Assembly: GCF_902652985.1 (NCBI RefSeq)
Contig: NC_047015.1
Coordinates: forward strand, 12,276,001-12,340,000
DNA: 64,000 nt
Direction of reading: 5' to 3'
Source: Pecten maximus
Taxonomy: Eukaryota
Part shown: positions 54,001-57,000 of the stretch, in pieces
Position numbering within the stretch: position 1 is the first letter of the stretch
Layout: each line of letters starts with the position of its first letter
Made by a program: the position numbers

Positions 54001-57000
54001 GTCTGATGCATAGGATGATTTACATTGTCAGGTTAGCAGGCCTGAACTCCCTCAATTCTCTGAGAATGGTGGCGATGAAATCTAATTATAAAACAGTGCA
54101 CCTTCAACATTTAGCTCTAGTCATGTGCAATTTTCTTTGATAATGTGACTACCTAGTGTCATAAAAGCTGTATGTTATATTTGCTTTCTCAATGGGATCA
54201 TCCAGGTGTTATAATGGTTGTTTATATATATATTAATGTTTTCTCAGTGGGACCATGTGTACCCTGGTGTCATAACATATGGTTGTTTATATATATATAT
54301 TAATGTTTTCTCAGTGGGACCACCCTGGTGTCATTATAGTTGTTTATATATATATTAATGTTTTCTCAGTGGGACCACCCTGGTGTCATTATAGTTGTTT
54401 ATATATATATTTATGTTTTCTCAGTGGGACCACCCTGGTGTCATTATAGTTGTTTATATATATATATTAATGTTTTCTCAGTGGGACCATGTGTACCCTG
54501 GTGTCATAACATATGGTTGTTTATATATATATATTAATGTTTTCTCAGTGGGACCACCCTGGTGTCGTAATGGTTGTTTATATACATATTTATGTTTTCT
54601 CAGTGGGACCACCCTGGTGTCATTATAGTTGTTTATATATATATTAATGTTTTCTCAGTGGGACCACCCTGGTGTCATTATAGTTGTTTATATATATATA
54701 TTAATGTTTTCTCAGTGGGACCACCCTGGTGTCATTATAGTTGTTTATATATATATTAATGTTTTCTCAGTGGGACCACCCTGGTGTCGTAATGGTTGTT
54801 TATATATATATTAATGTTTTCTCAGTGGGACCACCCTGTGGGTGGTCGTAATGGGTTGTTAATATATATTAATGTTTTCTCAGTGGGGGACCACCCTGGT
54901 GTCATTAAAGTTGTTTATATACATATGTATTGTTTTCTCAGTGGGACCACCCCTGGTTTCATTATAGTGGTTATATATATAATAAATGTTTTCTCAGTGG
55001 GACCACCCTGGTGTCATTATAGTTGTTTATATATATATTAATGTTTTCTCAGTGGGACCACCCTGGTGTCATTATAGTTGTTTATATATATATTAATGTT
55101 TTCTCAGTGGGACCACCCTGGTGTCATTATAGTTGTTTATATATATATATTAATGTTTTCTCAGTGGGACCACCCTGGTGTCGTAATGGTTGTTTATATA
55201 TATATTAATGTTTTCTCAGTGGGACCACCCTGGTGTCGTTATGGTTGTTTATATATATATTAATGTTTTCTCAGTGGGACCACCCTGGTGTCATTAAAGT
55301 TGTTTATATACATATTTATGTTTTCTCAGTGGGACCACCCTGGTGTCATTATAGTTGTTTTTGATGTGACAAACGAGACATCTTTCTCAAGTTGCGCGAA
55401 GTGGTTAGAACGGGTGCGATCACAGAAGCCAGATGTACACATGCCAGGTAAGTGTTTCCATATTCAATTATACATGTATATTCATTGAAAATACTAATGC
55501 ATAGGTCACCTGCACCTGAGACGAAGTCTCAAGTGACATTTTCTAATCACCTTTTGTCATTCATCTTGCCAAAGGAAGTCACATTTTTGACGGTCATTTT
55601 TAAAAATTTCTATTGGAATTCATTCTAACTTGGTTCAAACCAGCAGCATGGGATGACAGTTTGATAGCATGCCCATGTTGGTCCTAACTGATCCCATGGG
55701 CTGATGGACGGGACCAAAAAGGGTCAAATTAACTTAATTATTTCAAAACTCAGGTGACAGCTAAGGCCCATGGGCCTCTTGTTAAATATATTACATCTAT
55801 AGATGTTTTAATGCTATGTAATAATTTTCCGTTATTCTGATTAGGACAATGAAATAAGGTCTGTTAAACAACCCCAGTAGACAATTACTGTCAAAATAAT
55901 ATAGATTGGAATGTCCAGTACCACAGCTATATCGATGGAAGGGAGACAACTATAACTGCTGTAAATTTTGAGTGGAAAATACATGGTTAGGGAAAGATAA
56001 TGTAAGGATGATGATATAGGGATCTAAAATAAGATATATGTGGTTATTGGTGGGTCACAGAAAGTCTCTCAAATTCCACCTATTTATTTCTGGTTAAGCC
56101 CTGCAATGATTTTTTAAAATGTGATTTTCTGGTTTTACTGAAGCAGTTATCCATATATTAAATGTTCTGTTGTACAGGAGTTCTGATAGGAAACAAAATT
56201 GACTTGGAACAGAGACAGGTGATCAGCCCAAAGGCTGCCACACATTTTGCTGAATCGAATGGCCTGAAATACTTTGAGTGTTCTTCTGTAAGTAAATAAA
56301 CTTGAGCTGTGAAAAGCATATAAAATACTTAATTATAAATATCCTGTCAATGAGAAGTTTATTGTCACAAATCATACTGTCCAGTAGTCCAATTACTATA
56401 CAATGTGTTACTGGTGATAAGTTCAAGACAGGGCACACACATTATGTACAGTTTGTATGTTAGATGTTCTCAATTCTCAAACTGGGTAAAGTTTAATATC
56501 CACTATATTTATTTAAGTGTATTTTGTGGGTAACTACTGGGTAATTATTTCATAAATTAATGCATCTCTGAAATGGTAATTTAAAAAAAAAAAAAAAAAA
56601 ACATAGAGGTTAGGCCTAAAAATGTTTCTGATTATACAGCATATGGTTTATATCATAAACAATTAACTACATTTCATATTGATGGATGATTTTCTAGTTT
56701 AAAATAATCTTCTTATGCAATCGATTTTGTGCAAAGATGTTAAATGTTTGTCTTTTATTTTATTTTACAGAAAGAATTCCAGAATGTGGAAGCGCCATTC
56801 TACTATATAGCCAATGAATTCTACAAAATCTATCAAGAACGTATTGAACATTTCAAGACACTATCCTTATGATAGATCTTCATTTTGAACAAGAGACTTT
56901 TGAAATATTGTACTCTATACATTCCTCCGTCCATCTGTTAAATAGATTTTTTATGTCCAAATAAAATTAGTATGCAACATATTATTGTGTCCTTTACTTT

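What the first reader, a model, noticed from the sequence alone, without database searches (positions are those of the whole stretch)
54181..55447. Twenty tandem copies of a real 3' splice site plus exon start in IFT27
Seen: the repeat unit is the polypyrimidine tract, CAG and the first ~31 nt of exon 5 (WDHPGVIIVV). There are 19 upstream acceptors nearly identical to the functional one at 55329/55330. The nearest two frameshift (+55, +110) and the in-frame one at +165 hits TAA at 55261-55263. Inference: correct IFT27 needs the most distal AG, against a first-AG scanning rule. It would be a natural test of exon definition, or a copy-number-tunable route to unproductive splicing and NMD in a ciliary gene.
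Basis: partly seen in the sequence, partly recalled or inferred. Interest (0 to 1): 0.72.

Follow-up and report, generated by a model that had tools for sequence, protein, structure and literature searches.

The report
Minisatellite duplicating an IFT27 splice acceptor
A 55-base tandem repeat has copied the end of an intron plus the start of an exon about twenty times inside an invertebrate-looking IFT27 gene; this kind of structure is already known from lancelets as a "mirage" and is probably a tolerated by-product of a repeat-rich genome.

Summary
A 55-bp minisatellite (54185-55360, 20.7 copies) ends exactly 31 nt inside exon 5 of a seven-exon IFT27-like gene. Nineteen upstream units keep the tract-CAG-exon start. 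Two more units at the left edge are degenerate. Only the last AG (55328-55329) gives an open frame; all 19 decoys lead to a premature stop.

The "first-AG rule" argument is misapplied. 19 of 20 CAG units carry their own branch-point-like motif at -22 to -26, with no AG between it and the CAG. The real choice is therefore which unit is recognised.

Decoy unit 8 is 55/55 identical to the real site. Discrimination must therefore come from outside the unit. The likeliest source is the unique exon body and its perfect donor CAG|GTAAGT.

The structure matches the "mirages" described in amphioxus genes, which are reported not to disturb splicing, and mirrors the human F7 intron 7 VNTR. A quarter of the window is tandem repeat.

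Verdict: a real new member of a known kind. Copy-number-tuned NMD is untested and unlikely. I do not take the contig for human.

The parts
47042..47078 (+). Tentative exon 1 of the IFT27-like gene: ATG, 37 nt, ends in phase 1
   Evidence: open frame; GT donor; phase fits exon 2. It is too short to search, so it is tentative.
51653..51732 (+). Exon 2, carrying the P-loop (G1) motif
   Evidence: AG/GT, phase; best solved-structure hit is IFT27, 8ruy_Q, E 0.0037, chain residues 25-49.
51756..52680 (+). Second minisatellite (53-bp unit, 16.7 copies) inside intron 2. It starts 23 nt after the donor and ends 73 nt before the next acceptor, so it covers no splice site.
52753..52812 (+). Exon 3 (60 nt)
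   Evidence: No Pfam hit for this 20-residue piece. Assigned by frame, AG/GT and position.
53105..53164 (+). Exon 4 (60 nt, ends in phase 0; carries the DxxG motif). Donor TAT|GTAAGT, 7/9 to consensus.
54144..54192 (+). Degenerate edge unit ('copy 0'): recognisable homologue of the unit with a 1-nt deletion and changes at all codon positions; no AG
   Evidence: local alignment of the left flank to internal units
54193..54247 (+). Unit 1 (exon-start register). It is preceded by CAA instead of CAG. Its exon-like part differs from the real exon start at 6 of 31 positions, all codon third positions.
54248..55329 (+). Units 2-20: 19 decoy acceptors, each with pyrimidine tract, CAG and an exon-like start. 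Every one gives a premature stop if joined to exon 4.
54580..54634 (+). Decoy unit 8, 55/55 identical to the real site over -24..+31
55328..55329 (+). The AG of the only acceptor that keeps the reading frame open
55330..55447 (+). Exon 5 (118 nt). The first 31 nt belong to the repeat. The remaining 87 nt are unique, with purine fraction 0.57 and GC 0.48, against 0.41-0.48 and 0.26-0.37 behind the units upstream.
   Evidence: Pfam Ras, E 1.3e-05; best hit IFT27
55448..55453 (+). Donor of intron 5. CAG|GTAAGT matches the consensus 9/9 and is the strongest donor of the gene. The best GT inside the array scores 6/9 (2 sites).
56178..56287 (+). Exon 6, carrying the NKxD (G4) motif
   Evidence: Pfam Ras, E 4.6e-08; best hits are generic Rabs
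56771..56872 (+). Exon 7 with stop codon TGA. There is no C-terminal cysteine.
   Evidence: (best hit IFT27, E 0.52, chain residues 174-198)

Best explanation
This is a 'mirage'-type minisatellite. A 55-bp segment made of the last ~24 nt of intron 4 and the first 31 nt of exon 5 of an IFT27-like gene was duplicated in tandem. It then expanded upstream into the intron by slippage or unequal exchange, in a genome where such arrays are everywhere.

A tandem duplication across a 3' splice site always leaves the last unit joined to the rest of the exon, so the gene stays intact. Each unit is a complete small acceptor module: a branch-point-like motif, a short pyrimidine tract and CAG.

I infer that the last unit wins because it alone is followed by the real exon body (GC- and purine-richer) and, 118 nt downstream, by a perfect donor. 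That is recognition across the exon. The upstream units are mostly silent pseudo-acceptors. Any use of them would make transcripts with premature stops that decay. The array is therefore a tolerated, probably length-variable by-product, not a regulator.

Shown here: the anatomy, the frame consequences, the lack of usable donors in the array, and the repeat-rich setting. Inferred: how the site is chosen and that the decoys are silent.
For: - Array and unit boundaries.
- Only 55330 keeps the frame open; 19 of 19 decoys stop early.
- Unit 8 is 55/55 identical to the real unit, so the unit sequence itself cannot be what distinguishes the real site.
- 19 of 20 CAG units have YTNAY at -22 to -26, and 20 of 20 have no AG between -26 and -3.
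- The exon 5 donor scores 9/9. None of the 130 GT sites in the array exceeds 6/9, and only two reach 6, so no decoy can be closed into a small exon.
- Behind +31 the real exon has purine fraction 0.57, 4 GAR triplets and GC 0.48. The 20 upstream units have 0.41-0.48, 0-1 and 0.26-0.37.
- The edge units are degenerate and the inner ones are homogenised. Units 3, 4, 5, 8, 9, 10, 15, 16 and 17 have exon-like parts identical to the exon. The same pattern is described for mirages.
- 29 merged arrays cover 25% of the window; 12 are 300 bp or longer; a second one sits in intron 2.
- Precedent: amphioxus globin BflGb6 has tandem duplications of the intron 3' end plus the exon 5' part, and RT-PCR suggested regular splicing (passages). 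Adh and TnC mirages 'do not generate aberrant mRNAs' (passage). The F7 intron 7 VNTR has silent identical pseudo-donors (abstract and Discussion).
Against: - No transcript data exist here, so silence of the decoys is inferred only.
- Decoys 18-20 would give exons of 173-283 nt. As I recall, that is still a size at which recognition across the exon works, so they could compete.
- Exon definition is best established in vertebrates. Many invertebrates rely more on recognition across introns (recalled). The organism is unknown.
- The amphioxus reports rest on RT-PCR, which can miss transcripts removed by decay.
- I could not read the original Adh3 paper or any supplement.
- Units 12-14 carry homopolymer-type indels. 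These could be assembly errors, so the exact copy number is uncertain.
Confidence: 0.65

Rival explanations
1. Copy-number-tunable unproductive splicing. A meaningful share of transcripts uses decoy acceptors, gains a premature stop and is degraded. Array length would then set IFT27 output.
For: - 19 of 19 decoys keep CAG, and all give premature stops upstream of two further exon junctions.
- 17 of 19 are at least 21/23 identical to the real site at -20..+3, and unit 8 is identical over 55 nt.
- 18 of 19 decoys have a branch-point-like motif at a workable distance.
- Tandem-repeat length is associated with splicing in human genes (abstracts only, in the listing: PMC10078293, PMC3948165).
Against: - Precedents with the same architecture report normal splicing. 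The F7 pseudo-sites are silent.
- Nothing indicates selection for the array. It is one of 12 large arrays in 64 kb.
- A 55-bp seed placed at random in this gene spans one of its 12 junctions with probability about 0.07. Such events should therefore be common genome-wide.
- No comparison across species or individuals was possible.
Confidence: 0.1
2. Assembly artefact. The array, or most of its length, was produced or inflated by mis-assembly or poor polishing of long reads.
For: - Units 12-14 (54826-54997) carry extra G or C in short runs and other small indels.
- The globin paper notes that one mirage was aberrantly assembled in a draft genome (legend of Additional file 4, seen).
Against: - The units fall into several recurring variants.
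- Two progressively degenerate edge units are what an old, real array looks like, not a collapsed or inflated one.
- Eleven other arrays of 300 bp or more in the window have the same character.
- The window contains no N.
Confidence: 0.07
3. Raw material for a new exon or intron (the 'mirage' intron-gain model), or a source of variants for the exon start by gene conversion from array units.
For: - The intron-gain model was proposed for amphioxus globins (passage).
- Array units encode alternative peptides at the exon start: V-V-M-V in units 7, 11, 18 and 19, and I-K in unit 20.
- Unit 1 differs from the exon only at third codon positions.
Against: - No GT in the array scores above 6/9.
- Every decoy reading runs into a stop.
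- There is no evidence of any conversion into the exon.
- The outgroup-like 'copy 0' suggests that part of the third-position pattern arose on the non-coding lineage, which points to chance.
Confidence: 0.05

Closest known systems
'Mirage' minisatellites of amphioxus (Adh3, troponin C, globins BflGb6/BflGb9, PGBD5)
   Same: - Tandem, minisatellite-like repeats whose unit spans an exon-intron boundary and so multiplies a splice signal.
- BflGb6 has exactly this layout: the 3' end of the intron plus the 5' part of the exon.
- Inner units are homogenised and boundary units are excluded from homogenisation.
- The units carry AG/GT signals, yet splicing is reported normal.

Seen in passages of PMC3087553 and PMC3902484.
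   Different: - Here there are 19 intact decoys plus 2 degenerate units, against 3 and 6 units in the two BflGb6 haplotypes.
- The unit is 55 bp, against 150-160 bp in BflGb6. Adh3 units of 10-72 bp are quoted.
- The gene is IFT27-like and the organism is unknown.
- Splicing and length instability were not tested here.
- The founding paper (Canestro et al. 2002) is not held. I know it only through these citations.
Human F7 intron 7 37-bp VNTR (Borensztajn et al. 2006, PMC1557585)
   Same: A minisatellite whose end unit spans an exon-intron boundary. The real splice site is accompanied by five to nine sites identical in sequence, which stay silent. Only the site next to the exon is used. (Abstract; Discussion.)
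   Different: - It is the mirror image: donors, not acceptors, with the real site being the most upstream one.
- It is mammalian and has fewer copies.
- It has been dissected with 50 constructs, whereas nothing has been tested here.
Tandem acceptors (NAGNAG) and experimentally duplicated 3' splice sites
   Same: There is competition between neighbouring acceptors, with an outcome set by position and context. The duplicated gamma-globin splice-site experiments are mentioned. NAGNAG is recalled from memory and rests on no call.
   Different: NAGNAG sites are 3 nt apart and share one branch point and one tract. Here the sites are 55 nt apart and each has its own module.
Intronic VNTRs that modulate splicing (for example TERT intron 6; catalogues of splicing-associated tandem repeats)
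   Same: Both are length-variable intronic repeats with a possible influence on splicing. (Abstracts only, in the listing.)
   Different: [quoted passage not shown]

Membership tests
Mirage minisatellite (tandem repeat spanning an exon-intron boundary) | Head-to-tail repeat of minisatellite unit size | tested here: met
   Period 55, 20.7 copies, score 1726. 21 anchors.
Mirage minisatellite (tandem repeat spanning an exon-intron boundary) | The unit contains an exon-intron boundary with its splice signal, and the real copy sits at the array end joined to the rest of the exon | tested here: met
   The unit is about 24 nt of intron end with CAG plus 31 nt of exon 5. The repeat ends at 55360 inside exon 5. 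20 of 21 anchored units carry CAG.
Mirage minisatellite (tandem repeat spanning an exon-intron boundary) | Concerted evolution of inner units, with divergent boundary units | tested here: met
   9 of 20 upstream units have exon-like parts identical to the exon. Unit 1 has 6 differences and lacks AG. 'Copy 0' is strongly degenerate.
Mirage minisatellite (tandem repeat spanning an exon-intron boundary) | Regular splicing despite the duplicated signals | not testable with these tools
   No transcript data are available. Reported for amphioxus genes only.
Mirage minisatellite (tandem repeat spanning an exon-intron boundary) | Length polymorphism or instability between haplotypes | not testable with these tools
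   Only a single sequence is available. No reads and no second haplotype.
IFT27 (RABL4) small GTPase | Ras/Rab-like GTPase domain with the nucleotide-binding motifs in order | tested here: met
   Pfam Ras matches exon 5 (E 1.3e-05) and exon 6 (E 4.6e-08), 2 of 6 exon pieces scanned; the other four (20-33 residues) gave no hit. P-loop in exon 2, DxxG in exon 4, NKxD in exon 6. Exons were searched one by one.
IFT27 (RABL4) small GTPase | Closer to IFT27 than to other Rab-like proteins | tested here: inconclusive
   IFT27 of Chlamydomonas (8ruy_Q, 2yc2_C) is the best hit for exons 2, 5 and 7, at collinear chain positions 25-49, 95-128 and 174-198. E-values are weak (0.0037, 0.00021, 0.52). For exon 6 generic Rabs lead, and IFT27 is not among the 60 rows shown. 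The joined protein was not searched, by instruction.
IFT27 (RABL4) small GTPase | No C-terminal cysteine lipidation motif (feature recalled from memory) | tested here: met
   The exon 7 peptide has no cysteine before the stop.

The most novel reading that the evidence does not exclude
The decoys are not silent. A measurable and length-dependent share of IFT27 pre-mRNA is spliced to upstream units and destroyed. A hypervariable minisatellite would then act as a heritable (perhaps even somatically variable) dial on the dose of a ciliary transport protein. In the same experiment, the locus would serve as a natural 19-decoy assay showing how a spliceosome picks one acceptor among identical ones.
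Probability: 0.08. Interest if true: 0.7.

Novelty: new member of a known kind. Interest (0 to 1): 0.3.

Why it matters
If the decoys are silent, as precedent suggests, the locus is a clean natural demonstration. One decoy is identical to the real site over the whole 55-nt unit, so the sequence of a 3' splice site, including its branch-point-like motif and tract, is not enough to select it. The exon context downstream would decide.

It also adds an unusually long acceptor-side example to the short list of 'mirage' repeats. If the organism is not a lancelet, it widens their known range.

For annotation it is a practical warning. Gene predictors and short-read aligners can place the exon 4-5 junction on any of 20 near-identical acceptors.

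Tried and rejected
- RNA structure as the discriminator. Base-pair probabilities over 54050-55560 (maximum span 300) gave no consistent difference. The real site ranks 2nd of 20 for openness over -26..-1 but 16th of 20 over -14..+2. Rejected as uninformative.
- Higher-order repeat. Three-unit blocks aligned to the terminal block gave 0.876-0.96 identity with no sharp optimum (best at unit 7 with 0.96; unit 11 gave 0.936). I do not claim a defined multi-unit duplication. I note only that variant units recur and that TRF also offers a 167-bp period.
- Second mirage in intron 2. The 53-bp array starts at 51756, 23 nt after the donor, and ends at 52680, 73 nt before the acceptor. It is not a mirage.
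- Other copies of IFT27 exons in the window. tblastn of each of exons 2-7 separately found only the exon itself, plus, for exon 5, the array units.
- Rfam at gathering threshold over the whole window: 0 matches.
- Literature. One search gave 2 papers, neither on such arrays. One search (5 papers) and one search (IFT27, 4 papers) gave nothing relevant by title or abstract. One search found only the globin paper again. Within searches I found no report of such an array in IFT27, and none outside amphioxus and human F7. That is the limit of the claim.
- One search failed on a search-term sign and was re-sent.
- The founding Adh3 paper is not held.
The genome collection on offer holds only bacteria and archaea and was not used. 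Supplements were closed, including the globin paper's alignments of mirage units.
- The exons were never joined.

Full report
**What is there**

The window has no N and about 35% G+C. Tandem Repeats Finder returns 64 rows. Merged, these make 29 arrays covering 16,179 of 64,000 bases (25%); 12 arrays are 300 bp or longer.

The array in question is 54185-55360: period 55, 20.7 copies, 88% matches. With an anchor across the junction I count 21 units in register. Unit 1 has CAA, units 2-20 have CAG, and unit 21 is the real acceptor with the exon starting at 55330. A local alignment of the left flank shows one more, strongly decayed unit at 54144-54192. The same alignment fixes the right end of the repeat at 55360, 31 nt into the exon. 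A 20-base word across the junction occurs 17 times exactly, against none in 100 shuffles.

**The gene**

On the + strand I find seven exons with AG/GT at every junction and consistent phases:
- 47042-47078 (tentative; too short to test)
- 51653-51732
- 52753-52812
- 53105-53164
- 55330-55447
- 56178-56287
- 56771-56872

They sum to 567 nt, or 188 codons plus a stop, by arithmetic only.

Pfam Ras matches exons 5 and 6, 2 of the 6 exon pieces scanned; the four other pieces are 20-33 residues long and gave no hit. Among solved structures, Chlamydomonas IFT27 (8ruy_Q, 2yc2_C) is the best hit for exon 2 (E 0.0037), exon 5 (E 0.00021) and exon 7 (E 0.52). The matched chain positions run in order: 25-49, 95-128 and 174-198. 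For exon 6 generic Rabs lead. So 3 of the 4 exons searched point to IFT27, with weak E-values as expected for pieces of 26-39 residues. The exon 7 peptide has no cysteine, which fits IFT27 as I recall it.

**Not human**

I do not take this contig for human. A quarter of it is minisatellite. It carries reverse-transcriptase and GIY-YIG open frames of the Penelope kind, which to my recollection mammals lack. No tool flagged it. I did not try to name the species. No eukaryotic genome collection was on offer.

**Consequences of using each acceptor**

Exon 4 ends in phase 0. Read from each unit's exon-like start, all 19 CAG decoys reach a stop. Examples are +55 at TGA 55362, +110 at TAA 55295 and +165 at TAA 55261. 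Only 55330 stays open to the donor at 55447/55448.

**The 'first-AG' argument**

As I recall the scanning rule, the search runs from the branch point to the first AG, not from the 5' splice site. In this array:
- 19 of 20 CAG units have a YTNAY motif with its A at -22 to -26. Unit 15 has one only at -37.
- 20 of 20 have no AG between -26 and -3.

Each CAG is therefore the first AG after its own branch-point-like site, and the rule is not challenged. The open question lies one step earlier: which unit is recognised at all.

**What can distinguish the real unit**

It cannot be the unit itself, because decoy 8 (54580-54634) is 55/55 identical to the real unit, and 17 of 19 decoys are at least 21/23 identical at -20..+3.

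Predicted RNA accessibility does not separate the real site either. It ranks 2nd of 20 over one window and 16th of 20 over another.

What does differ lies downstream of +31:
- The real exon body has purine fraction 0.57, four GAR triplets and GC 0.48. The 20 upstream units have 0.41-0.48, 0-1 and 0.26-0.37.
- The exon ends in CAG|GTAAGT, a 9/9 match to the donor consensus and the best of the six donors in the gene. Of 130 GT sites in the array none exceeds 6/9, and only two reach 6.

I infer recognition across the exon. The last unit is the nearest acceptor to a strong donor and the only one followed by exon-like sequence. This step is inference. It is weakest for decoys 18-20, whose extended exons would be only 173-283 nt long.

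**Origin**

The exon part of the unit encodes a conserved strand of the GTPase; residues 6-39 of exon 5 align to IFT27. The exon is therefore the source and the repeat is the copy.

A tandem duplication across a 3' splice site leaves the last copy joined to the rest of the exon, so such events need not harm the gene. Inner units are homogenised: 9 of 20 upstream units have exon-like parts identical to the exon. The two left-edge units are progressively decayed. This is the usual picture of a real array evolving in concert.

A 55-bp seed dropped at random in this 9.8-kb gene would span one of its 12 junctions with probability about 0.07. With arrays this dense, such hits are expected genome-wide.

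**What is known**

The same structure has a name. [quoted passage not shown] They are described for Adh3, troponin C, a retinol dehydrogenase, the globins and PGBD5.

For the globin paper (PMC3087553) I saw the abstract and passages of one section:
- BflGb6 duplicates the 3' end of an intron plus the 5' part of the next exon. The units are 150-160 bp, with 6 and 3 units in the two haplotypes.
- Many units carry AG/GT signals.
- RT-PCR suggested regular splicing.
- Inner units evolve in concert and boundary units are excluded.

For the PGBD5 paper (PMC3902484) I saw one passage. [quoted passage not shown] The founding paper (Canestro et al. 2002) is not held. Supplements, including the unit alignments, were closed.

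The mirror case at a donor is the human F7 intron 7 37-bp VNTR (PMC1557585; abstract, Discussion). Five to nine identical donors are present, only the one next to the exon is used, and the pseudo-sites are functional but silent.

In my searches I found no report of such an array in IFT27.

**Verdict**

This is a real and striking, but not new, kind of structure: an acceptor-side mirage with an unusually high number of intact decoys. The most likely state is mostly silent decoys with at most minor splicing noise cleared by decay. Regulated, copy-number-dependent decay remains possible but has no support here.

What stays open is everything that needs transcripts, reads, other individuals or related genomes.

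Noticed in passing
54193-54223 compared with 55330-55360: Unit 1's exon-like part differs from the real exon start at 6 of 31 positions, and all 6 are codon third positions (the peptide changes by one residue only). The hypergeometric P is 2.9e-4, or about 0.014 under a model with one constrained lineage. The more decayed 'copy 0' agrees with the exon at three of these sites, so part of the pattern may be chance on a non-coding lineage. This is unexplained (note).
   Followed up: partly
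51756-52680: A second large minisatellite (53-bp unit, 16.7 copies) fills most of intron 2 of the same gene. It starts 23 nt after the donor and ends 73 nt before the acceptor, so it touches neither splice site.
   Followed up: yes
60714-62105 (+) and 62778-63227 (-): Open frames with a reverse-transcriptase match (below Pfam's cut-off: 26.2 bits against 29.6) and GIY-YIG nuclease matches (31.8 and 32.4 bits, above the cut-off). The combination is that of Penelope-like retroelements (name recalled). There is one on each strand.
   Followed up: partly
45601-46596 (-): A single open frame of 331 residues with ankyrin repeats and a SOCS box, head to head with the tentative IFT27 exon 1 about 450 bp away.
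   Followed up: partly
32467-36948: The largest array of the window: 43-bp unit, 107 copies, 4.5 kb. Other long arrays lie at 20059-21654 (26 bp x 62), 25202-26819 (45 bp x 35), 17311-18648 (42 bp x 31) and 39309-40516 (52 bp x 23.5). I did not check whether any of them spans a splice junction of another gene.
   Followed up: no
54826-54997: Units 12-14 carry several one-base run-length changes and small indels, while their neighbours are clean. This may be real decay or imperfect polishing of the assembly.
   Followed up: no
47126-47221 and 47475-47570; 47328-47362: A 32-residue open-frame segment appears twice about 350 bp apart just inside intron 1, flanking a run of 35 C. This looks like a local duplication or a small mobile element.
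   Followed up: no
249-1160 (-) and 3215-4624 (-): Two long open frames at the left end of the window. One has only weak PH-domain matches below Pfam's cut-offs. The other (469 residues) has no Pfam match.
   Followed up: no
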